Source: Candidatus Levyibacteriota bacterium (GTDB lineage Bacteria > Patescibacteriota > Microgenomatia > Levybacterales > UBA12049). Taken from it: a stretch of DNA of 64,000 nt. Made by a program: the position numbers and the translations under genes. The stretch lies in NCBI GenBank assembly GCA_016182185.1, contig JACOXU010000002.1, forward strand, positions 86,874 through 150,873, read 5' to 3'. Positions 1 through 59,149 of the stretch are shown one piece after another. The first letter of the stretch is position 1; each line of letters opens with the position of its first letter. The notes beneath the pieces were generated by a model that was given only the letters and a program-made list of their open reading frames with translations, was not told where the DNA came from and ran no database searches.

Positions 1-78
1 GAAGCAAATATCGATACGAAGAGAAAAGAGATGATTATTAAGAAAAATGCAGAGAATAATTTAGCCCCGAAGCCTATT

Positions 79-1125: not shown

Positions 1126-1255
1126 TAAATCTACTCATAATGCCGATAATGGATGCCTTGGAGGCTTTGGCCGAGGAAGGACGTATATGACGGCGATACT
1201 CGTCGGGGAGGTGTCATAAACCTTCGATCCGGCGGTTTCCGAATGGGGGAACCCC

Positions 1256-1272
1256 CCCCGCCTTTGGCGGGG
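1256..1272 (+). repeat. 17-nt hairpin ccccgcctttggcgggg, copy 2 (inside 23S domain I variable loop)
   Basis: Identical 17-mer to 1109-1125. Confidence 0.6.
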
Positions 1273-1621
1273 AGCCAAATATGAAGTTATAGCCGTAAGG
1301 CTGTATATTAGTGTTTGGCTGGGCACGGTGTGAACTGAAACATCTAAGTAACACCAGGAAAATAAATCAAATGAGATTCCCTAAGTAGCGGCGAGCGAAA
1401 TGGGAATAGTCTAAACTTCGGAGCAATCCGGAGGGTTGCAGGGCAGACAATATTCGATGTATTTTTTGTAGCAGAAGAACCCGGAATGGTTCTCCAAAGA
1501 GAGTGAAAGGCTCGTATGCGAAACAAAAGATACCGATAGTTTGTACCTAAGTACCATGGGGTACGGTGAAACCCTGTGGGAATCTGGGACGTCCACGTTC
1601 CAAGACTAAATACCAAAGTCT

Positions 1622-1660
<39 letters not shown>

Positions 1661-1736
1661 CACCCCGGAAGGGGAATGAAATAGATCTGAAATTGTCGGC
1701 TAACAAGCAGAGAAAGCTTGTCCTTTGGACAAGGCT

Positions 1737-1767
1737 AAATTTCTAATTTCTAATTTCTAATTTCTAA
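1737..1767 (+). repeat. tandem heptamer repeat (tttctaa)x4 inside the 23S expansion segment
   Basis: aaatttctaatttctaatttctaatttctaaac. It belongs to a ~100-nt AT-rich insertion in 23S that also contains aattag-type repeats. Confidence 0.7.
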
Positions 1768-2357
1768 ACAAATTCCAATTTTGAAAAATCCAAAAGTTTA
1801 GATCAATTAGTAATTAGTTCAATTAGGTTAATTTATCCTCGCCCAGAGGGCGAGTGATCTCGTGCCTATTGAAGAATGAACCGGTGAGTTATTGATTGCA
1901 GCATAGTTTAACCAAGTAAGACTTGGGAAGACGTAGTGAAAGCATGGCCTAATTGGCCGATTAGTTGCAGTCAGTAGACCCGAAACCGGGTGAGCTAACC
2001 TTGGGCAGGGTGAACCCCATCGAAAGTTGGGGGGAGGCCCGAACCCGTATCTGTAGCAATAGGTTGGGATGACCTGAGGTTAGGGGCAATATGCCTAACG
2101 AACCCGGAGATAGCTGGTTCTCCCCGAAATATATCTAGGTATAGCGGGATATTACATCAACCTGGGGGTAGAGCACTGAATGGCCTTCGGCGGGGCAACC
2201 TGTCGAGTCCAATCAAACTCCGAATACCAGAAATTGTTGATATCCTAGTCAGACTGTTCGGGCTAAGCTGATCAGTCGAAAGGGAAACAGCCCAGACTCT
2301 CATCTAAGGTCTCTAAATAAAGACTAAGTTTTGAAGGAAGTCAAGTTCCATAGACAA

Positions 2358-2388
<31 letters not shown>

Positions 2389-2473
2389 TAAAGATAGCGT
2401 AACAGCTCACTGGAGGATGGTACTTGGCGCCGAAAATTTATCGAGGATTAAGTCTTTTACCGAAGATAGAGAT

Positions 2474-2490
2474 CCCCGCCTTTGGCGGGG
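2474..2490 (+). repeat. 17-nt hairpin ccccgcctttggcgggg, copy 3 (inside 23S)
   Basis: Identical 17-mer. It occupies a helix tip that is variable in E. coli. Confidence 0.6.
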
Positions 2491-3692
2491 GTGGTAGGGG
2501 AGCGTTCTGTTTGTAGCGAAGCTGTGCTGTAAGGCATGGTGGAACGGACAGAAGTGAGAATGCCGGTATGAGTAGCGAAATGCCGATGAGAAGTCGGCAC
2601 GCCGAATACCCAAGGTTTCCTCCGCAATGTAAGTCAGCGGAGGGTTAGTCGGCCCTAAGGGTGTCCCGTGAATAATTGCGGGGTAGCCCGATGGACAAGT
2701 CGTTGAAATTCGACTACATGGGGAAATGCGTTATTACTCAAGGATCGACCGGACTGGAAAAAAGATGCCCTGCCTCGGCGGGGTCTAAGCCATAAAGCAG
2801 TTTTGATTGGTAAATCCGTCTAAACGTTTTAACTGAGTGGCGATGGTGAAGATTCTAGATTCTAGAATTTAAGATTTTCTTTTTCAGTTTGCAAGAAATG
2901 ATTCGTGAGGAGTGTTTTTCTATGCCGTACCGCAAACCGACACAGGTGGGTTGGTCGAGAAGACTAAGGCGATCGGGAGAAGGATGGTCAAGGAACTCGG
3001 CAAAAAAGCTGGGCGTAACCTTTGGGAGATGCCCTGCCCGGTTAATCCGGGCTACAACAAAAGATTGCTTAGCGACTGTTTATCTAAAACACAGGCCTCT
3101 GCAAAACCGAAAGGTAAAGTATAGGGGCTGACGCCTGCCCAGTGCTGGCAAGTCAAATATCGAGAATGAAGTTCGCAAGAATCAGTTTTTGATATAAGCT
3201 CCAGTAAACGGCAGCAGTAACTATAACTGTTCTATGGTAGCGAAGTTCCTTGTCGGGCGAGTTCCGACCCGCACGAAAGGCAGAACGACTGAGCAACTGT
3301 CTTGATCATCTACCCGGCGAAATTGAGATGGCCGTGAAGACGCGGCCTAGTTGTCCTTAGCCCCCTCTTTCTGTGTTTGAGTCTAGACTAATAATCTTTG
3401 GTTCGAACCTAGAAAGAGGGGGCATAAGTGAAATACCTCTCTTTGAATTGAGTAATCATCACCTCTTTGCCGCATAAAAATCCGGCAGAGGGACAGTGTC
3501 TGGTGGGCAGTTTAACTGGGGAGGTTGACTCCTAAAGAGCAACGGAGTTGCACAAAGGTTGGCTATCCGCCGAAAGAAATGGCGGAGATAGTGTAAAGGC
3601 ATAAGCCAGCTTGACTGCGAGACCTACAAGTCGAGCAGATGCGAAAGCAGGTCTTAGTGATCCTCCGTAGCGTAGTGGTACGCTCGGAGCTT

Positions 3693-3725
<33 letters not shown>

Positions 3726-3801
3726 GATCGCATCCAAGCGTCCACAGCGACGATGCGGTTTGGCACCTCGATGTCGGCTCATCCTATCCTGGGGCTGAAG
3801 A

Positions 3802-3834
<33 letters not shown>

Positions 3835-4005
3835 AGGGTACGCGAGCTGGGTTAAGAACGTCGTGAGACAGTTCGGACTCTATCCAGGACAACCGTTTGA
3901 GATTTGAGGAGATCCGTTCCTAGTACGAGAGGACTGGAATGGGGGAATCCCTGGTGTGCCAGTTGTTCCTTATAAGGGCAGCGCTGGGTAGCTATATTCC
4001 CAACT

Positions 4006-4036
<31 letters not shown>

Positions 4037-4385
4037 AGCCTCCAAGATAAGATCTCGTTTTTCCCGCCCTCGGGTGGGATTAGACCCCTTGTAGACTACA
4101 AGGTTGATAGGCGGGCGGTGGAAGTGCCGTAAGGTATTGAGCCTACCCGTACTAATGGTCGAGAGTAGATTAAACCCTACACATCTTACCATTCGTCTTA
4201 GTTCATTTGAACTGCGACTTATGGAGCGATTGTTGAGGGGCAAAGCATTTTCTCTTCACTTTTGAGCGAGTCGATTGACGAGCGAAACCCGCCATGAATC
4301 GCAGTATGAGGCGTGAATGAATAATTCTGGAAAGCCGAATGCTAAGATGAGGAGGGTCGAGTACTTTAACTTTTGAAGAAAGAAA

Positions 4386-9559: not shown

Positions 9560-10333
9560 ATGGCAAAGAAAAAGATTGTTAAAAAGAAAGAAAAAGATAT
9601 AGAAAGACATCTATCTCCTTTTTCCCCGAAGGTTGTTGGTCTTATTGCAGATGAGGTGGCAAAAACAGTAGTAAGACGACTCACTCCATTTAGACGCACA
9701 AAGAAGAGAAAAAAGACCAAAAAGATCGAAAACGCAATGTTTCTCGACACTTCGGCAATAATAGACGGAAGAATATTTGATGTGATAAGTCTTGGTCTTT
9801 TTTATGGAACATTCGTAATTCTTGAAAGCATACTTCTTGAGCTTAAGCATATTGCTGATTCCCAAGATACGGTAAGAAGGGAAAGGGGAAGAAAGGGGCT
9901 CGAACTTTTGGACAAAGCCAAGAAGGCAAAAAAAATAAAATTTGTCATTATGCCGGATGAAAAGAGTGAACTTAAAGAAAGAAATCTCAAAGAGGTTGAT
10001 GAAAGACTTATTCATGCAGCCCGCGTCAATAAGGGGAAAATAATCACCTGTGATTACAATTTGGAGAAAAAAGCAAATATCAGCGGAATCTCTGCTATCA
10101 ATATGAATACTTTAGCTTCCTCGCTTAAAGTTCGTGCGGTCCCAGGAGAAGCCCTTCACATCAAAATTTTGCATACGGGAAAAGAATCAACACAAGGAGT
10201 GGGTTATTTGGATGATGGAACAATGATTGTAGTTGAAAATGCAAGTTCTGAGTTAGGGAAGGCGATAGACGTTCTGGTAGCAAGAGTTATTCAGACGACC
10301 GCTGGAAGAATCTTATTTGCGAAGAAAATTTAA
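9560..10333 (+). CDS. yacL: PIN/TRAM-domain protein (YacL-like)
   Basis: A PIN domain (LDTSAIIDGRI) plus a C-terminal TRAM domain (GEALHIKILHTGKESTQGVGYLDDGTMIVVENA...). It sits in the conserved radA-yacL/disA neighbourhood. Confidence 0.7.
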   Translation: MAKKKIVKKKEKDIERHLSPFSPKVVGLIADEVAKTVVRRLTPFRRTKKRKKTKKIENAMFLDTSAIIDGRIFDVISLGLFYGTFVILESILLELKHIADSQDTVRRERGRKGLELLDKAKKAKKIKFVIMPDEKSELKERNLKEVDERLIHAARVNKGKIITCDYNLEKKANISGISAINMNTLASSLKVRAVPGEALHIKILHTGKESTQGVGYLDDGTMIVVENASSELGKAIDVLVARVIQTTAGRILFAKKI

Positions 10334-10340
10334 TTTTAGA

Positions 10341-10385
10341 AGAGGTAGGAATCCCTGCCCAAGACTCCTACCTCGTCTAAAATTT
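10341..10385 (+). terminator. putative intrinsic terminator after the yacL-like gene
   Basis: 9-bp stem gaggtagga/tcctacctc followed by a weak T-tract (gtctaaaatttg). Confidence 0.3.
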
Positions 10386-10930
10386 GTAAATATACGAATT
10401 TTTTTTCTTAAAATATCAAACTATATCAAGAAAAACTCTAATTTTTAGCTTCATCAATTTTCCTTGACAATTTTTTTTATTTTTGATAATAACTTAATAA
10501 GGCAAATAGTTTTATTTCCTGCCTAGGAACTAGTTGCCGTTTTTCGCAAGAGCATTGCTTATCGTACCTGAAATTATCATTGTGTGTAACGAAAGCGATG
10601 CTCTTTTTTCGCTATACTTACAAAAGTGCAATTGGTACTGAAAGCCCTCTTTTAAGAAGAGCCTTAAACTGCTCCCTGCCCTGTTTTACGAGCAATTCCT
10701 GTTTGTAATCCATTACCTGCTTATTTACAGTTCTCCTTTTTAATTTTAAAAAATTAAGGCTCATATCTAAAAGTATTTTATCACACCTTGTCAAGTCCTG
10801 TCAATCCTATAGCCTAAAATAAGACCAAATATTTCTAGTCTCATAGTAAAATATAGATAGATTAGATTGATTTTACAGCCCTTTGTATTTTCCATGGAAA
10901 AATGTGGATAACTTGTTGGAAACTTTATGC

Positions 10931-38649: not shown

Positions 38650-41238
38650 ATGGCTAAATCTAGCTCAAAAAAAGAAATTCCAAAGTATAATCCTACAGAA
38701 GTTGAGCCTAAATGGCAAAAATATTGGCTTGAAAATAAAATTTACCAGCCGGATATGGATAAGGCCAAAAAGCCCTTTTATAATCTCATGATGTTTCCAT
38801 ATCCATCAGCCGAAGGTATGCATGTGGGCAATATGTATGCTTTTACGGGCTCAGATGTTTATGGGCGATTTAAAAGGATGCAAGGACACGATGTTTTTGA
38901 ACCGATCGGACTTGATGGATTTGGAATTCACAGCGAAAATTATGCTTTAAAAGTTGGTAAACATCCTAAAGAACAGGCAAAGGTAAGCCAGGAAAATTTT
39001 TACAGACAGCTTCGAGTAACCGGAAATAGCTTTGCCTGGGATAATAAACTCGAAACCTATGACCCAGATTATTACAGATGGACACAATGGATATTTATCA
39101 AGCTTTTCAAAAAAGGATTAGCCTACCGCAAGAAAGCATCAGTTAATTTCTGCCCATCCTGCAAGACAGTTCTTGCAGATGAACAGGTGATTGCCGGAAA
39201 GTGTGAGCGCTGCGGTACCGAGGTTGTCAAAAAAGAGCTTGAGCAATGGTTTTTTAAGATCACCGACTATGCCGAAAGGCTCCTTAATAACATTGATGGG
39301 CTGGATTGGACAGAAAAAGTCAAAATCGCCCAAAGACAATGGATAGGGCGATCAGAGGGAGCGTTAATAAAATTCAAAATTCAAAATTCAAAATTCAAAA
39401 TGAAGACGATAGAAGTATTTACGACTCGGCCTGATACTCTTTATGGTGCAACCTTTATGGTTTTGGCTCCTGAGCATTCTCTTTCAAGAGAGATTGCAAG
39501 AGGCAATAACGAAATTGCGAAATATATCAAGGAATCTCAAAGCAAAACAGATCAGGATAGAATTGCAGAAGGCAGGGATAAGACAGGCATCGACTCAGGC
39601 TTGAGGGCCATAAATCCGGTAAGCAAAGAGGAAATTCCCGTATGGATTGCTGACTACGTGCTTATGGGCTATGGAACAGGTGCAATAATGGCAGTTCCTG
39701 CTCATGATGAGCGCGATTTTGAGTTCGCCCAAAAGTATAATCTTAGTATAAAATTTGTTATCAAGCCGATAGAAAATGATTTAGATACCAGAAAAGCTTA
39801 TTTGGGAGCAGGACAAGTAATCAATTCCGGGAAAGATTGGAATGATTATTTTGTGCCTGATGCAATCCCACGGATGATTGATGATCTTGAAAAGTGGGGA
39901 ATGGGAAAAAGACAAATCCAATATCACCTTCGGGATTGGCTTATCTCGAGGCAAAGATACTGGGGGCCGCCGATTCCCATGATTGATTGTCCAAAGTGTG
40001 GGTGGCAGGCAGTTGCTGAGAAAGATTTACCGGTACTTCTTCCCGATATTAAGGATTGGAAGCCTACAGGAGCTGGTAAATCACCGCTTGCTACGGTTGA
40101 GAGCTTTGTAAATACAAACTGTCCCGTATGCGGAGGACCTGCCAAACGAGAAACCGATGTATCTGACACATTTCTTGACAGCGCATGGTACTTCTTTCGT
40201 TACATAGCTACAGATTTTAAAGATGTTCCATTCCCTTCTAGTGCGTTTCATGATGATGCTGAGGTTGCTTCCAACAATTTTCGTCTTCACAAAGCGGGTA
40301 AATCTTCTGATTCATCCCGGAATGTCAGTGACGCAAATGTTCAGAGCGAAAATTTTAAAAGCTCCCCGCACCAAAGTCAAAACCGAACTGAAAAATGGCT
40401 TCCGGTGAACATGTATATAGGAGGAGCAGAACATTCGGTCTTACATCTGCTTTATTCAAGGTTTCTGACAATGGTTTTTAAGGATTTAGACTTGATATCT
40501 TTCGAAGAGCCATATTCTAAATTCAGAGCGCATGGGTTGCTCGTAAAGGAAGGGGCTAAAATGAGCAAGAGCAAGGGGAATGTAGTCATTCCGGATGAAT
40601 ACATTAAAAAATTTGGAGCAGATACCTTAAGGCTTTACTTAATGTTCCTCGGACCTTTTACTCAAGGAGGAGACTTTTACGATACGGGAATTGAAGGTAT
40701 GTATAGATTCGTCAGAAGAATCTGGACTCTAATTCATACAGTTAATTTCTCAACTCAATCCACAGGTGAAGGATTAAAAATAATGAACAAGACTATTAAA
40801 AAGGTAACAGAAGACTTGGAGGCTCTCAGGTACAACACAGCTATTGCAACGCTAATGGAATATTACAATTTTTTGTCAAAGGAACAAACTATATCAAAAG
40901 AGCAGATCGAAATATTAATTATTTTAACTTCACCCTTCGCTCCGCACATTTCTGAAGAAATTTGGGAGTTCTTAGGTCATAAAAATTCCATAAGCCAAAC
41001 AAATTGGCCCAGGTTTTCAGATAAATTTCTCGTCGAAAAAAATACGATAATCGTATTACAAGTGAATGGCAAAATTAGGGACACTTTCATGGTAGAAAAA
41101 TCTGAAATTGACAATAAGCAGACAATTGAAAAGATTGCTAGACAAAGTAAAAGAGCCAAAAAATACTTTGAAAACAAGCAAATCAGAAATGTCGTTTACG
41201 TAAAGGGAAAAATAATTAACTTTGTAATTGACAATTAG
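38650..41238 (+). CDS. leuS: leucyl-tRNA synthetase
   Basis: HVGNMYAF matches the HIGH motif (HMGH-type in LeuS). Also FTTRPDTLYGATF, WISRQRYWG and KMSKSKGN. It contains a ~43-aa in-frame insertion at 40258-40378 and an in-frame heptamer repeat at 39368-39400. Confidence 0.9.
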   Translation: MAKSSSKKEIPKYNPTEVEPKWQKYWLENKIYQPDMDKAKKPFYNLMMFPYPSAEGMHVGNMYAFTGSDVYGRFKRMQGHDVFEPIGLDGFGIHSENYALKVGKHPKEQAKVSQENFYRQLRVTGNSFAWDNKLETYDPDYYRWTQWIFIKLFKKGLAYRKKASVNFCPSCKTVLADEQVIAGKCERCGTEVVKKELEQWFFKITDYAERLLNNIDGLDWTEKVKIAQRQWIGRSEGALIKFKIQNSKFKMKTIEVFTTRPDTLYGATFMVLAPEHSLSREIARGNNEIAKYIKESQSKTDQDRIAEGRDKTGIDSGLRAINPVSKEEIPVWIADYVLMGYGTGAIMAVPAHDERDFEFAQKYNLSIKFVIKPIENDLDTRKAYLGAGQVINSGKDWNDYFVPDAIPRMIDDLEKWGMGKRQIQYHLRDWLISRQRYWGPPIPMIDCPKCGWQAVAEKDLPVLLPDIKDWKPTGAGKSPLATVESFVNTNCPVCGGPAKRETDVSDTFLDSAWYFFRYIATDFKDVPFPSSAFHDDAEVASNNFRLHKAGKSSDSSRNVSDANVQSENFKSSPHQSQNRTEKWLPVNMYIGGAEHSVLHLLYSRFLTMVFKDLDLISFEEPYSKFRAHGLLVKEGAKMSKSKGNVVIPDEYIKKFGADTLRLYLMFLGPFTQGGDFYDTGIEGMYRFVRRIWTLIHTVNFSTQSTGEGLKIMNKTIKKVTEDLEALRYNTAIATLMEYYNFLSKEQTISKEQIEILIILTSPFAPHISEEIWEFLGHKNSISQTNWPRFSDKFLVEKNTIIVLQVNGKIRDTFMVEKSEIDNKQTIEKIARQSKRAKKYFENKQIRNVVYVKGKIINFVIDN
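39368..39400 (+). repeat. heptamer tandem repeat (aaaattc)x4.5, in-frame in leuS
   Basis: taaaattcaaaattcaaaattcaaaattcaaaatg, encoding IKFKIQNSKFKM in a variable loop just before the FTTRPDT motif. Confidence 0.75.
40258..40378 (+). mobile_element. RPE-like ~120-bp palindromic element inserted in-frame within leuS
   Basis: About 75% identical to the intergenic copy at 57833-57936 (shared gctgaggt, caaaatttt, gcgggyarat, cagygacgcaaatg, gctccccgc). Its termini are inverted (aattttcg...cgaaaatt). It sits where E. coli LeuS has 20 aa between the ARY and WLPV motifs and this gene has 63 aa. Confidence 0.5.
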
Positions 41239-57099: not shown

Positions 57100-57810
57100 A
57101 TGTCCAAAACTGAAATTATCCGTTTCCTAATTCTTCGGACTATCGGGAATTTTTTGGTTCTTTTTGCCGTCTTCGGGGTAGTTGCAACCTTCGGACCGTC
57201 GCTTTACTATGAGGTTTCATTCCGTATTGTACAGGCAAGAGGAGTCAAATATGTAGTTGCGGATGAAACCTCACCGCTCGGAGAGATTCTAAAAAAGCAG
57301 AATGTTCAAACCGAAGGCCTAAGTGGAGGATTTGCAAGTGTATTGGCCGGATCCAAGGAGCAAATATTGATGCCAAAAGATACAGATTTTAGTATTTTGA
57401 TACCAAAGCTTGGTATTTCTTCGAAGGTTTTTGCCAATATCAATCCAGCCAGCGAAAATGAGTTTTTGCCCATTTTGCAGCAAGGAGTAGCTCATGCAAA
57501 AGGAACAGTTTTTCCTGGAATACCAGGAAATATTTATTTATTTGCTCACTCAACGGATAATTTTTGGAATGTCGGTCGATATAATGCAGTATTTTATTTA
57601 CTTAAAGATCTTGTACCCGGGGACGACGTGATTATATTCTTCGAGAATCAAAGACATAATTACATCGTTACTGAGACTAAGATTCTTGATGGAGATGACA
57701 CATCATTTCTGACCAATTCGCAGACTGGAAAGGAAGTATTAATTCTTCAGACATGCTGGCCGCCAGGGACCACATGGAAACGTTTATTAGTTTTTGCAAA
57801 GCCAAAGTAA
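57100..57810 (+). CDS. sortase-family transpeptidase
   Basis: N-terminal TM anchor. Catalytic Cys in VLILQTCWPPG (a TLxTC-like motif), His in IYLFAHS, and Arg in KRLLVFA. The window contains several proteins with xPxTG, TM and basic tail, which are candidate substrates. Confidence 0.55.
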   Translation: MSKTEIIRFLILRTIGNFLVLFAVFGVVATFGPSLYYEVSFRIVQARGVKYVVADETSPLGEILKKQNVQTEGLSGGFASVLAGSKEQILMPKDTDFSILIPKLGISSKVFANINPASENEFLPILQQGVAHAKGTVFPGIPGNIYLFAHSTDNFWNVGRYNAVFYLLKDLVPGDDVIIFFENQRHNYIVTETKILDGDDTSFLTNSQTGKEVLILQTCWPPGTTWKRLLVFAKPK

Positions 57811-57832
57811 GTTAGATTTTACGCTGAGGTCG

Positions 57833-57936
57833 CTCACAAAATTTTTCTGTTCGCAACGCGGGCAGATTATTTCCAAAAGAAGGTTCAGCGACGCAAATGC
57901 TTACATCAAAATTTTGCAAGCTCCCCGCGCAGGGTT
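57833..57936 (+). mobile_element. RPE-like palindromic element, intergenic copy
   Basis: gctgaggtcgctcacaaaatttttctgttcgcaacgcgggcagatt...cagcgacgcaaatgcttacatcaaaattttgcaagctccccgcgcagggtt. Homologous to leuS 40258-40378, with inverted-repeat termini. It lies between convergent genes. Confidence 0.5.
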
Positions 57937-57955: not shown

Positions 57956-59149
57956 TTATTTTAATCCTATTGTGTAAAGATTAGGGGCGGTGTCTGTGTT
58001 GCCGAGGTTAGTTAAAATTACTATTTTTGTACCGTCAGGCCAGGGGAAAACGAAGCTATCTACAAAAGGACCGGCATAAATCTTAGTCGTATTTTTTCCG
58101 TCATATTCCATTATTTCCACTTTTTGATCGTGAACAAAAATAATGTGTTTTGAATCAGCCAACCAGTTCAAAGATTTTTCGAATCCAGCTTTATAATCAA
58201 GAATTTTATAATTTCTGTCTTCTTTTAGATCGTAAACATAAATCTCTCCGGGCTTTAATAATCTTTGCTCGGGTGTAGAATTAACTCCAATAAGCGGTGG
58301 CTTAATGATTATAGGCAAGGTCGACTGTTTTGAAACCCGATATAAAATTTTTAATTCATCAGGAGACCAAGCAATGATCTCGAAGTTGTTTTCGGCAAAT
58401 TTTCTTAATTCTCTTGGCAGGGAATCAATTTGAGATCTATGTTTTTCAAGTGTTTGTCTTTGCCAAGTAAGACTTGTAGTGGAGATTGTTTCTGTAATAT
58501 CTGAAGGATTCTGGTTTAAGCCGTCCCCCTTAAGTAGATAAGTGGTATTTAAATTTAGCGCAGAGATAGTTGCTATGATGGACGATCCATCAGGAGTCCA
58601 AGACAGCTTTGTCCTAGAAAAGGAATTTAAAGTATCTTCTACAATCTGGATCGATAGTCCTTGGAGCGTAATAATGGGCTTTGCGGTCATATCGAGCACA
58701 TATATTCCGTTTTTCTTAGCAGATTGCGAAGAGACTGTATAGGCAAGTTTTGTCTGTGAAGGATCCATAACCGCAACATTCACGCCGGTATTTGTGATAC
58801 TTTCAAGCTTAGGCGCGGTAGGGAAAAGAAGCGCCTCTGCCTTTGTAACCACGCCTTTTTCAATTTTTAGATGTTTTTCCCAAGAAAAGTATCCCTGTTT
58901 GAAGATCTTAATGTCGTACTCACCCGGGGTTAGATTAATCGTATTGTTCGTAGCAGTCGTCAAGTGATCATTTACAAAAACTTGTGCTCCATCAGGTGAA
59001 CTTGTTGCGACCAAAAGCCCTGTGCCTGATACGTCCGGTTTTATGCCGTCGAAGAATATTCGATATCCCCTTCCGAAAAGAATTACGACAACGGTTATAG
59101 ATATTAATGTCAAAAGGATTCCTAGGGAGATTATTAGTTTTTTCACCAC
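57956..59149 (-). CDS. membrane-anchored PEGA-domain / beta-propeller (TolB-like) protein
   Basis: N-terminal TM. A PEGA-like block (GAQVFVNDHLTTATNNTINLTPGEYDIKIFKQGY) is followed by repeats resembling WD40/TolB-type blades. The assignment is tentative. Confidence 0.4.
   Translation of the reverse strand: MVKKLIISLGILLTLISITVVVILFGRGYRIFFDGIKPDVSGTGLLVATSSPDGAQVFVNDHLTTATNNTINLTPGEYDIKIFKQGYFSWEKHLKIEKGVVTKAEALLFPTAPKLESITNTGVNVAVMDPSQTKLAYTVSSQSAKKNGIYVLDMTAKPIITLQGLSIQIVEDTLNSFSRTKLSWTPDGSSIIATISALNLNTTYLLKGDGLNQNPSDITETISTTSLTWQRQTLEKHRSQIDSLPRELRKFAENNFEIIAWSPDELKILYRVSKQSTLPIIIKPPLIGVNSTPEQRLLKPGEIYVYDLKEDRNYKILDYKAGFEKSLNWLADSKHIIFVHDQKVEIMEYDGKNTTKIYAGPFVDSFVFPWPDGTKIVILTNLGNTDTAPNLYTIGLK

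What the first reader, a model, noticed from the sequence alone, without database searches (positions are those of the whole stretch)
40258..40378. RPE-like palindromic mini-element inserted in-frame in leucyl-tRNA synthetase, with a second copy in an intergenic region
A ~120-nt segment inside leuS (40258-40378) is about 75% identical to an intergenic segment at 57833-57936. Shared blocks are gctgaggt, caaaatttt, gcgggyarat, cagygacgcaaatg and gctccccgc. Both copies have inverted termini (aattttcg...cgaaaatt; cacaaaattttt...caaaattttgcaag). In leuS the segment is translated in-frame (DDAEVASNNFRLHKAGKSSDSSRNVSDANVQSENFKSSPHQSQNRTEK). It sits where E. coli LeuS has 20 residues between the ARY and WLPV motifs and this gene has 63. 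This is the behaviour described for Rickettsia palindromic elements (small selfish repeats that enter ORFs without disrupting them). I do not know of such elements being described outside a few lineages. A more degenerate, internally palindromic relative may lie at about 10530-10700 (ttttcgcaagagcattgctt...aagcgatgctctttttt...gctccctgccctgtttt).
Basis: seen in the sequence. Interest (0 to 1): 0.8.

Follow-up and report, generated by a model that had tools for sequence, protein, structure and literature searches.

The report
Coding hairpin repeat inside leucyl-tRNA synthetase
A roughly 113-base hairpin-forming repeat sits in frame inside an essential enzyme gene and again between two genes, and the same repeat occurs in frame in at least eight other unrelated genes of related groundwater bacteria, a behaviour known mainly from Rickettsia and not found reported for this bacterial group.

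Summary
The leuS segment (40257-40371) and the intergenic segment (57822-57930) are two copies of one about 113-nt imperfect palindrome (blastn E=1e-6 within the window). A covariance model scores them at 125 and 101 bits and finds no third copy, so the tentative relative at 10530-10700 is rejected.

Public-collection scans recovered 11 more distinct copies, all from Patescibacteria or Levybacteria-like contigs. Nine unrelated host genes carry it, always in the same orientation and frame. It encodes a 37-38 aa peptide, AEVASENFRVHNAG-x10-ANAHSENFESSPR/H. Four copies are non-coding.

LeuS orthologs at 69-76% identity have an empty site; one shares the insert. In that pair, synonymous-site identity is 95% in the element arms and 51% in the rest of the gene. 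The stem shows compensatory changes. Flanks are inverted complements, not direct target duplications. The AlphaFold2 model gives pLDDT below 50 at residues 536-572, almost exactly the element peptide (537-574).

The same loop of ribose-phosphate pyrophosphokinase (Prs) holds empty sites, this family, other insert families and remnants.

It behaves like Rickettsia palindromic elements (RPEs) but is unrelated in sequence. I found no report of such elements in this phylum. The mobilisation mechanism is unknown.

The parts
38650..41238 (+). leuS (leucyl-tRNA synthetase), an intact 862-aa ORF that hosts the element
   Evidence: ORF list. 8000 LeuRS homologs with Pfam tRNA-synt_1 and Anticodon_1. 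Matches T. thermophilus and E. coli LeuRS structures. KMSKS and the WLPV..YIGG motifs are intact.
40257..40371 (+). Element copy A (family F1), in frame in leuS. Codons 40258-40371 encode AEVASNNFRLHKAGKSSDSSRNVSDANVQSENFKSSPH (residues 537-574). The terminal pair is T40257 with A40370.
   Evidence: nhmmer E=5.5e-35. Covariance model 124.8 bits over 40251-40377. Minus-strand hairpin dG -40, z -4.1. Residues 536-572 have pLDDT below 50.
40258..40296 (+). Left arm of copy A (GCTGAGGT..AATTTTCG..CACAAAGCGGG)
   Evidence: Alignment A7 columns 8-46, which pair with columns 82-119.
40297..40331 (+). Variable central loop of copy A
   Evidence: A7 columns 47-81. Sequence and length vary among copies, giving a 109 or 112 nt core. 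Amino-acid identity between the two LeuS orthologs is 9% here.
40332..40369 (+). Right arm of copy A (GACGCAAATG..GAAAATTTT..AAGCTCCCCGC)
   Evidence: A7 columns 82-119.
57822..57930 (+). Element copy B (family F1), non-coding. It has three small deletions (1 nt in the left arm, 4 nt in the loop, 1 nt in the right arm) that break the peptide frame but keep the hairpin.
   Evidence: nhmmer E=1.4e-30. Covariance model 101.3 bits. Minus-strand hairpin dG -41.8, z -3.8. Frame analysis.
57100..57810 (+). Sortase-domain gene. Its stop codon lies 12 nt upstream of copy B, and copy B is in the sense orientation relative to it.
   Evidence: ORF list. Pfam PF04203 Sortase, E=3.7e-18.
57956..59149 (-). 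Convergent PEGA-domain gene. Copy B lies in the 145-nt spacer between the two stop codons.
   Evidence: ORF list. Pfam PF08308 PEGA, E=3.4e-8.

Best explanation
The two segments are copies of a short, non-autonomous, hairpin-forming repeat, here called family F1. Its core GCTGAGGT...CTCCCCGC is 109-112 nt, or 111 or 114 nt with the terminal base pair. It has spread through genomes of Levybacteria-type Patescibacteria.

Shown:
- It is a dispersed family with copies in unrelated genes and in spacers.
- It is an imperfect palindrome whose stem is kept by compensatory changes.
- Intragenic copies are always in one orientation and one stop-free frame.
- Their lengths are multiples of three.
- Orthologs with empty sites exist.
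- The LeuS insert is a low-confidence excursion in the structure model.

Inferred:
- A copy landed in the loop of LeuS that corresponds to T. thermophilus LeuRS residues 521-525.
- It survived because the 38-aa hydrophilic peptide it adds is tolerated, so the enzyme is translated straight through it.
- Insertions in other frames, in the other orientation or at buried sites were removed by selection.
- Copy B, in a convergent spacer, is free of coding constraint. It has accumulated frame-breaking indels but remains a hairpin.

The mobilisation step is unknown. There is no direct target duplication. The flanks continue the stem as inverted complements. The better hairpin is always on the antisense strand. 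These points suggest, but do not show, a mechanism that uses a single-stranded hairpin, or template switching at a quasi-palindrome, in place of classical cut-and-paste miniature inverted-repeat transposable element (MITE) transposition.
For: Family and spread:
- Pairwise significance is E=1.4e-6.
- 13 distinct full-length copies score 74-120 bits with nhmmer and 101-142 bits with the covariance model. They come from independent NCBI, JGI and ENA assemblies.
- The host genes are LeuS, an RluA-type pseudouridine synthase, Prs, DnaX, a GT1 glycosyltransferase, a Mur-ligase/FolC-type protein, DprA and two uncharacterised ORFs. All carry the element in the same frame.
- The host proteins hit the window only through the element peptide.

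Frame and length:
- The +1 frame is open in 13 of 13 copies. Frames +2, -2 and -0 are open in 8, 7 and 4 of 13 but are never used.

Empty sites:
- P0002, P0003, P0004, P0006 and P0009 have an empty LeuS site, and P0001 is filled.

Hairpin:
- The consensus has 29 pairs. Six pairs show changes on both sides, 17 cells in all, and 97% of cells are paired. None of 500 shuffles reaches these values, and slid controls give 36-54% paired.
- Flank pairs outside the conserved core are complementary in 13, 11 and 10 of 13 copies (permutation P<0.001).

Nucleotide-level conservation:
- Between the window and L001 leuS, synonymous-site identity is 51% outside the element and 95% (19 of 20) in the arms.

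Structure:
- pLDDT is below 50 at residues 536-572, with flanks at 85-92.
- The homology to solved LeuRS breaks exactly there.

Decay series:
- The Prs loop shows full, diverged, truncated and remnant copies next to empty sites.
Against: - No transposase or autonomous partner was identified, and no presence/absence polymorphism of F1 was found between near-identical genomes. Mobility is therefore inferred from distribution, not observed.
- Copy number per genome is unknown. There are 2 copies in this 64-kb window and only one strict-pattern match in a 720-kb contig.
- A search of 1.84 billion protein-cluster representatives gave only 4 hits, so the family is small.
- The very high conservation of the arms across genomes whose proteins are only about 70% identical could mean a selected function, not selfish spread.
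- Translation of the insert is inferred from frame and length conservation. No expression data were available.
- Most copies were retrieved with a pattern that required a conserved right arm, which biases the apparent conservation. The LeuS pair and the Prs set are free of that bias.
Confidence: 0.8

Rival explanations
1. The hairpin is a functional nucleic-acid element, such as a terminator or stabiliser hairpin, an RNase target, an antisense RNA or a protein-binding DNA cruciform. On this view its recurrence and arm conservation reflect selection for that function and not selfish spread. The coding copies would be domesticated or dual-use.
For: - The arms are 95% identical at synonymous sites and the host gene is 51%.
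- The stem shows compensatory substitutions.
- There is a consistent strand asymmetry. All 13 copies fold 3-14 kcal/mol better on the minus strand. All eight transition-type mismatch cells are A-C or C-A on the plus strand, which is G-U on the minus strand.
- Copy B sits between convergent genes, where a terminator would be expected.
Against: - No Rfam family matches.
- The positions inside nine unrelated housekeeping genes share no common regulatory logic.
- Intragenic copies keep frame and multiple-of-three length, which is what translation requires and a regulatory hairpin does not.
- The Prs loop shows decay to remnants and replacement by unrelated insert families, which is the behaviour of junk and not of a conserved regulator.
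- The simple terminator scan finds only a short internal stem in copy B and no hairpin plus U-tract for the whole element.
- This rival is not exclusive of the main explanation.
Confidence: 0.12
2. It is a protein module: a 38-aa peptide motif selected for a function at the protein level, such as an interaction or localisation tag, and moved between genes by recombination. The palindromic DNA would be incidental.
For: - The peptide is conserved (AEVASENFRVHNAG...ANAHSENFESSPR) in one frame in all nine hosts.
- It is hydrophilic.
Against: - Non-coding copies exist, including window copy B with frame-breaking indels that still keeps the hairpin.
- Third codon positions in the arms are as conserved as first and second positions (85% against 89% and 93%).
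- Covariation follows base pairing, not amino-acid similarity.
- The central third of the peptide is hypervariable.
- The model gives pLDDT below 50 for the peptide.
- There is no Pfam or NCBIfam match.
Confidence: 0.04
3. It is an ordinary lineage-specific LeuS loop, and the similarity to the spacer is chance, a local duplication of a leuS fragment, or an assembly artefact.
For: - P0001 shares the insert at the same site, so part of the pattern is vertical inheritance.
- P0125 looks like an assembly chimera across the repeat.
Against: - The alignment has E=1e-6 within the window.
- The similarity ends exactly at the palindrome ends and does not extend into leuS flanks.
- The same element occurs in eight other genes and in independent assemblies from several projects.
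Confidence: 0.01

Closest known systems
Rickettsia palindromic elements (RPE-1 to RPE-10; Ogata et al. 2000 and 2002, as summarised in PMC2229807 and PMC10969869)
   Same: - Size is 105-150 bp.
- They form a long stem-loop with inverted termini.
- They occur both in spacers and in frame inside unrelated, conserved housekeeping genes.
- Each family encodes a conserved peptide in one frame.
- The inserts are judged compatible with the host protein fold.
- Several families coexist in one lineage, and copies decay with time.
- No clear target-site duplication is known, and no transposase is known.
- The hosts are reduced-genome bacteria.
   Different: - No sequence relationship was found: no NCBIfam or Pfam hit. 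That these libraries hold RPE peptide-domain models is my recollection, not checked here.
- The host phylum is Patescibacteria (Levybacteria-like), not Alphaproteobacteria.
- Far fewer copies were detected.
- Here the arms stay highly conserved at synonymous sites between diverged orthologs.
- The flanks extend the stem as inverted complements.
- The same loops of LeuS, Prs and DnaX are occupied by different insert families in different genomes. I did not find these three features described for RPEs in the papers read.
Classical bacterial MITEs with open frames (Correia/NEMIS 107-bp form, ERIC, YPAL; PMC2229807)
   Same: They are small, non-autonomous repeats that fold into long stem-loops. 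They are mostly intergenic but are sometimes fused in frame to ORFs.
   Different: Those elements have terminal TA or defined target-site duplications, and in some cases a matching IS transposase. Here direct duplications are absent: flank pairs such as GT...AC and GAAC...GTTC are inverted, not direct. No partner IS was seen. Intragenic copies dominate the sample, at 9 of 13.
REP/BIME elements mobilised by REP-associated tyrosine transposases (RAYTs), and IS200/IS605 single-strand hairpin transposition (PMC3733652 for REPs)
   Same: Recognition depends on strand-specific imperfect hairpins. There is no target duplication. The strand asymmetry and the G-T or G-U-type mismatches confined to one strand are reminiscent of this.
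   Different: REPs are 20-40 bp with GTAG or CGTC tags and are extragenic. F1 is about 113 nt, starts (C/T)GCTGAGG and is mostly intragenic. No Y1 transposase was identified. This is only a mechanistic lead.
Coding palindromes in Nematomorpha mitochondrial genes (PMC6649704)
   Same: These are long inverted repeats embedded in protein-coding sequence and maintained over evolutionary time.
   Different: Those are perfect, gene-specific repeats, not a dispersed family shared between genes, and they are in a eukaryotic organelle.

Membership tests
RPE-like protein-coding palindromic repeats (functional class) | A short (about 100-150 bp) sequence repeated at several unrelated loci | tested here: met
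   There are 2 copies in the window and 11 further distinct copies elsewhere. The core is 106-112 nt.
RPE-like protein-coding palindromic repeats (functional class) | A palindrome that folds end to end into one long stem-loop | tested here: met
   Single-sequence folds give z -3.8 and -4.1 on the minus strand. The consensus has 29 pairs, 97% of cells paired, 6 pairs with compensatory changes and 0 of 500 shuffles as good.
RPE-like protein-coding palindromic repeats (functional class) | In-frame insertion in unrelated conserved protein genes, encoding a conserved peptide | tested here: met
   Nine host gene families carry it in one frame, with peptide AEVASENFRVHNAG..ANAHSENFESSPR.
RPE-like protein-coding palindromic repeats (functional class) | Copies also occur in non-coding DNA | tested here: met
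   Non-coding copies are window 57822-57930, L049, L043/L045 and L050.
RPE-like protein-coding palindromic repeats (functional class) | Orthologs with an empty site, showing insertion and not an ancestral loop | tested here: met
   In LeuS, 5 of 6 closest orthologs are empty and 83 of 106 scored orthologs have the short 24-residue spacing. In Prs, many orthologs have the short 47-residue spacing.
RPE-like protein-coding palindromic repeats (functional class) | The insert lies at a site compatible with the host fold (surface loop) and the host stays functional | tested here: inconclusive
   In the AlphaFold2 model, pLDDT is below 50 at residues 536-572 inside a confident core. The insert maps between T. 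thermophilus LeuRS residues 521 and 525. Solvent exposure was not measured and enzyme activity cannot be tested here.
RPE-like protein-coding palindromic repeats (functional class) | High copy number within a single genome (tens of copies) | not testable with these tools
   Only a 64-kb window and loci of 12 kb or less were available. There are 2 copies per 64 kb here, 2 within 1.3 kb in L044, and 1 strict match in a 720-kb contig.
RPE families of Rickettsia (membership by descent) | Sequence similarity to the RPE-1..10 consensus or peptide domains, and occurrence in Rickettsiales | tested here: not met
   The peptide has no NCBIfam or Pfam match at E<=10. That these libraries contain RPE domain models is my recollection, not verified here. 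All hosts are Patescibacteria or Levybacteria-like.
Classical MITE | Direct target-site duplication flanking the terminal inverted repeats | tested here: not met
   Flanks are inverted complements (GT..AC, GAAC..GTTC, AAAAT..ATTTT, GGC..GCC) with a mean run of 2.8 bp against 1.1 expected, P<0.001. They are not direct repeats.
Classical MITE | A related autonomous IS with matching termini and a transposase | not tested
   No other match to the element exists in the window or in viral contigs. ORFs were not screened for transposases, and no whole genome was available.
REP/BIME (RAYT-associated) | A 20-40 bp palindrome with a GTAG or CGTC tag, extragenic, with a RAYT gene in the genome | tested here: not met
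   The element is about 113 nt, starts (C/T)GCTGAGG and is mostly intragenic. Presence of a RAYT was not tested.
Diversity-generating retroelement variable and template repeats (VR/TR pair) | Two copies that differ mainly at adenines, one at the 3' end of a target gene, next to a reverse transcriptase | tested here: not met
   There are more than two copies, in many genes. Differences include all base classes and indels. The copy is mid-gene in LeuS.

The most novel reading that the evidence does not exclude
Levybacteria carry several unrelated families of translated insert elements that repeatedly colonise the very same loops of essential enzymes. At least the F1 and F2 families are hairpins. 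F1 and F2 occupy the same sites in Prs and DnaX. F1 and an F3-like insert occupy the same site in LeuS. The stems are actively maintained through compensatory changes and 95% synonymous-site identity between orthologs. They extend into the flanks as inverted repeats, not direct repeats. This would point to a hairpin-templated or single-strand, structure-targeted insertion mechanism that homes to pre-existing palindromes. That mechanism would differ from duplication-generating MITE transposition, and it would be a systematic source of loop growth in proteins of the Candidate Phyla Radiation (CPR).
Probability: 0.3. Interest if true: 0.8.

Novelty: new member of a known kind. Interest (0 to 1): 0.65.

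Why it matters
In the literature I read, protein-coding palindromic repeats are treated as a near-unique peculiarity of Rickettsia. An independent, unrelated system in Levybacteria, a reduced-genome groundwater lineage of the Candidate Phyla Radiation, shows that the phenomenon recurs. It may be linked to small genomes with weak purifying selection.

It offers a concrete explanation for part of the well-known length variation and unexplained loops in proteins of this group. Here LeuS ranges from 758 to 1108 aa and Prs from 278 to 384 aa among close relatives.

It is a practical warning for annotation and assembly. Unrelated proteins share a 38-aa stretch, and one database protein appears to be a chimera joined across the repeat.

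The series of states in one Prs loop (empty, full, nested, remnant), together with the strand-asymmetric, flank-extending hairpin, gives a tractable system for asking how such elements move and why essential enzymes tolerate them.

Tried and rejected
- **Third copy at 10530-10700.** Not detected by blastn, nhmmer or the covariance model with filters off. It lies in a 600-nt spacer with its own hairpins, and Rfam gives nothing above threshold.
- **Rfam on the whole window.** Nothing at either copy.
- **Profile search of the 5.8-billion-protein database with the 42-aa peptide.** Only 64 candidates and 2 hits.
- **Full HMMER scan of 1.84 billion cluster representatives.** Only 4 hits. It added FolC and DprA as hosts, but it mainly shows that representatives at 50% identity usually lack the insert.
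- **Viral contigs.** 0 matches.
- **Exact look-up of the window's LeuS.** Not on record. The window's own genome is not in the searched collections, so no genome-wide census was possible.
- **Direct target-site duplications.** Looked for and not found.
- **Other insert families (F2-F4) in the window.** None by motif or blastn.
- **Orthologs of the other host genes in the window, as internal empty-site controls.** None present.
- **F3 insert in LeuS P0005 as a hairpin.** Not significant (z -0.5 and -1.2, against mononucleotide shuffles). Only imperfect inverted termini were seen by eye, and BLASTP similarity to the Prs F3 insert covers only 21 residues. I treat F3 as suggestive.
- **Alternative identities.** Intein, intron and diversity-generating retroelement readings were considered and rejected on frame, length and substitution pattern.
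- **Literature.** Three searches combining palindromic element, RPE or MITE with Candidate Phyla Radiation or Patescibacteria found nothing relevant. Ogata et al. 2002 (PMC186582) is not held in the library.
Full report
**The observation.** The window has 39% G+C and looks like a Patescibacteria (Candidate Phyla Radiation) genome. The best named LeuS and ribose-phosphate pyrophosphokinase (Prs) relatives are Candidatus Levybacteria or Levyibacteriota. leuS is an intact 862-aa ORF at 38650..41238.

blastn gives 71% over 115 nt and E=1.4e-6 for the whole window on both strands, and no other hit has E below 0.008. The exact limits are 40257-40371 and 57822-57930.

Each copy folds end to end into one long imperfect hairpin, and the fold is significant only on the minus strand:

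| Copy | Minus-strand dG (kcal/mol) | Minus-strand z | Plus-strand z |
|---|---|---|---|
| leuS copy | -40.0 | -4.1 | -0.7 |
| Spacer copy | -41.8 | -3.8 | -1.1 |

None of 200 shuffles folded as well on the minus strand.

**Is it an insertion?** Among 120 LeuS homologs, the distance from the start of AWYFFRY to WLPV could be scored in 106. It is 24 residues in 83 of them and 71 here. Of the six closest orthologs (69-76% identity), five have the short, empty form: P0002, P0003, P0004, P0006 and P0009. Only P0001 has a homologous insert of the same length at the same place, AEVASENFRVHNAGELGLENKKSSVANAHSENFESSPR.

Of the 47 extra residues, 38 are the element. About nine (PSSAFHDD) belong to an older DVPFPS...WLPV loop variant that many Levybacteria LeuS share, with variable contents.

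The DNA of the P0001 copy (locus L001) matches the window's spacer copy better (76.5%, E=2.7e-16) than the window's own leuS copy does.

**Is it a family?** One scan of GTDB species genomes with a right-arm pattern gave about 33 chance hits, close to the roughly 30 I estimated for a pattern this loose, plus two Patescibacteria loci. Both loci contain full-length copies.
- One copy is in frame in an RluA-type pseudouridine synthase (L018).
- The other is in frame in an uncharacterised 440-aa ORF (L031).

A stricter scan of metagenome contigs gave 12 loci, all real. Together with a scan of protein-cluster representatives, the hosts are:
- LeuS
- RluA-type pseudouridine synthase
- Prs
- DnaX
- a GT1 glycosyltransferase (two orthologs)
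- a Mur-ligase/FolC-type protein
- DprA
- two ORFs without Pfam hits

These make nine unrelated gene families. Four copies are non-coding: window copy B, L049, L043/L045 and L050.

Every intragenic copy is in the same orientation and frame and encodes AEVASENFRVHNAG-x(10-11)-ANAHSENFESSPR/H. The element including its terminal base pair is 111 or 114 nt long, always a multiple of three. Frame +1 is open in 13 of 13 copies. Frames +2, -2 and -0 are open in 8, 7 and 4 of 13 but are never used by a host gene. The peptides those frames would encode look more hydrophobic or cysteine-rich by eye, so selection on the peptide is one plausible cause of the frame bias.

The other host proteins hit the window only through the 38-aa stretch in LeuS.

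A covariance model built from the 13 copies finds exactly two copies in the window, at 124.8 and 101.3 bits, and the next plus-strand hit scores 10 bits. The suggested relative at 10530-10700 is therefore not a member. That region is a separate 600-nt spacer with its own promoter-like site and hairpins.

**Anatomy and constraints.** The two arms are almost invariant (alignment A7 columns 8-46 and 82-119). The central 30-35 nt vary in sequence and by 3 nt in length.

The consensus structure has 29 pairs:
- 97% of cells are paired, against 36-54% when the partners are slid.
- Six pairs show changes on both sides, 17 cells in all.
- None of 500 shuffles reaches these values.

The stem continues beyond the conserved core into sequence that differs from copy to copy but stays complementary. 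Examples are C..G or T..A in 13 of 13 copies, then GC/AT, GAAC..GTTC, AAAAT..ATTTT and CGT..ACG. The mean run is 2.8 bp against 1.1 expected (P<0.001). These flanks are inverted repeats, not direct repeats, so there is no classical target-site duplication.

All 13 copies fold 3-14 kcal/mol better on the antisense strand. All eight transition-type mismatch cells in the stem are A-C or C-A on the sense strand, which is G-U or G-T on the antisense strand.

Between the window and L001 leuS genes (77% amino-acid identity), identity at synonymous sites differs sharply:

| Region | Synonymous-site identity | Amino-acid identity |
|---|---|---|
| leuS outside the element | 51% | 77% |
| Element arms | 95% (19 of 20) | 74% |
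| Element loop | not informative | 9% |

The arms therefore do not evolve like coding sequence. Three explanations are possible, and the data do not separate them:
- The arms are under constraint at the nucleotide level.
- They are homogenised by conversion from other copies.
- They were acquired more recently than the split of the two species.

**Structural context.** An AlphaFold2 model of the window LeuS has mean pLDDT 81.8 and pTM 0.78. pLDDT is below 50 at residues 536-572 and 85-92 on both sides; the element peptide is residues 537-574. Against solved LeuRS structures the homology splits exactly there. Fifty query residues stand in for three residues, 522-524, of T. thermophilus LeuRS (1H3N/2V0C). 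This fits a tolerated excursion from a loop. Exposure and enzyme activity were not measured.

**A wider pattern.** Homologs of the Prs host show that one loop, between FAEKIKE and DTILVSPDMGG, exists in many states:
- empty, with 47-residue spacing
- full F1
- diverged or truncated F1
- F1 remnants such as AEVA..SPR
- a second palindromic family, F2 (GPVRSFLPASAP..MRAVGSPSTSATPR), whose fold has dG -40 kcal/mol
- F3-like and F4-like inserts
- nested combinations

In a rough neighbour-joining tree these states are interspersed. One near-identical pair differs by a 22-aa internal deletion (P0138 against P0141).

In two syntenic contigs, L044 has F1 in both Prs and DnaX. L047 has F2 at the same Prs site and F2 next to the right half of F1 at the same DnaX site. 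An F3-like insert also occupies the LeuS loop in P0005, though this rests on weak evidence.

So the same few loops are colonised again and again. Either they are the only permissive sites, or the elements target existing palindromes.

**Interpretation.** The best-supported reading is a small family of non-autonomous, hairpin-forming repeats. They insert, or are retained, in frame at permissive loops of housekeeping proteins, are translated as a short hydrophilic and probably disordered peptide, and then decay. This is the behaviour described for Rickettsia palindromic elements (PMC2229807, PMC10969869, PMC6649704).

Membership of the RPE families by descent is not supported. The peptide matches nothing in NCBIfam or Pfam, and the hosts belong to another phylum.

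It also fails the classical MITE test for direct target duplications, and no partner transposase was seen. The strand asymmetry and the inverted flanks are leads towards a single-strand hairpin mechanism or a template-switch mechanism. They are not evidence for one.

A functional hairpin, such as a terminator or an antisense RNA, remains a partial rival because the arms are so well conserved. The in-frame and multiple-of-three constraints and the decay series argue that translation and tolerance are the dominant forces.

**Novelty.** Three full-text searches combining palindromic element, RPE or MITE with Candidate Phyla Radiation or Patescibacteria returned nothing relevant. Rfam, Pfam and NCBIfam have no model for it. 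I rate it a new member of a known kind. The interest is moderate to high because it is an independent recurrence of a phenomenon regarded as close to unique. It may also explain part of the protein-length variation seen in this group.

**Limits.**
- The window's own genome is not in the searchable collections, so copy number per genome is unknown.
- Mobility and translation are inferred.
- The sample of copies is biased by the search pattern, except for the LeuS pair and the Prs set.

Noticed in passing
window 1128-4173 (hairpin at 3360-3423): The 23S rRNA match spans 3046 nt against a 2925-nt model. It contains a strong 21-bp inverted repeat (GCCCCCTCTTTCTGTGTTTGA / TCGAACCTAGAAAGAGGGGGC). 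This may be an rRNA expansion or insertion, which is common in this bacterial group. It is not related to the F1 element.
   Followed up: no
window 10334-10930: This is a 600-nt gene-free spacer between convergent ORFs. It has a strong minus-strand promoter-like site at 10804-10775 (11 of 12 matches, with an upstream TG). The minus strand of 10520-10770 folds with z=-2.7, and no Rfam family reaches its threshold. It may be an unannotated small RNA.
   Followed up: partly
window 10332-10384: A 22-nt inverted repeat, 91% complementary with a 9-nt loop, starts at the stop codon of the ORF 9560..10333. It is probably a terminator hairpin.
   Followed up: no
L001 5283-8408 (P0001), and P0004: The closest LeuS ortholog is 1041 aa. 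It carries an extra insertion of about 180 aa after the VIKP/VILP motif, in the region of the editing-domain junction. The window LeuS lacks it, and P0004 has a shorter insert at the same place.
   Followed up: no
P0125 (270 aa, protein database): This protein consists of the N-terminus of the RluA-type synthase, then the F1 peptide, then the C-terminus of the GT1 glycosyltransferase. It is most likely a metagenome assembly chimera joined across the repeat. It warns that these elements can mis-join contigs.
   Followed up: partly
L047 5812-5931 and 4029-4130; Prs homologs P0133, P0135, P0138, P0188: A second, G+C-rich palindromic coding element (F2, peptide GPVRSFLPASAP..MRAVGSPSTSATPR) occupies the same Prs and DnaX sites that F1 occupies in L044. 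In DnaX it sits next to the right half of an F1 copy.
   Followed up: partly
Prs homologs P0126-P0245; LeuS P0005 (L051 5152-5379): One Prs loop holds empty, full, nested and remnant states of at least four insert families. A near-identical protein pair (P0138 and P0141) differs by a 22-aa internal deletion. An F3-like insert (..AH.ENDARS..SLSE..SNDLPSSS) is seen in both Prs (P0174) and LeuS (P0005).
   Followed up: partly
L047 2116-2223 (same sequence as L040 5094-5201): A divergent, more symmetric variant of F1 sits in an intergenic spacer. It keeps the CGAAAATTTTC cores but has different outer stems (31 bits with the model; dG -39 and -43 kcal/mol).
   Followed up: partly
window 38650-41238 versus T. 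thermophilus LeuRS: The window LeuS, like its relatives, seems to lack the leucine-specific domain of T. thermophilus LeuRS. Query residues 221-224 of the fragment correspond to T. thermophilus 577-634.
   Followed up: no
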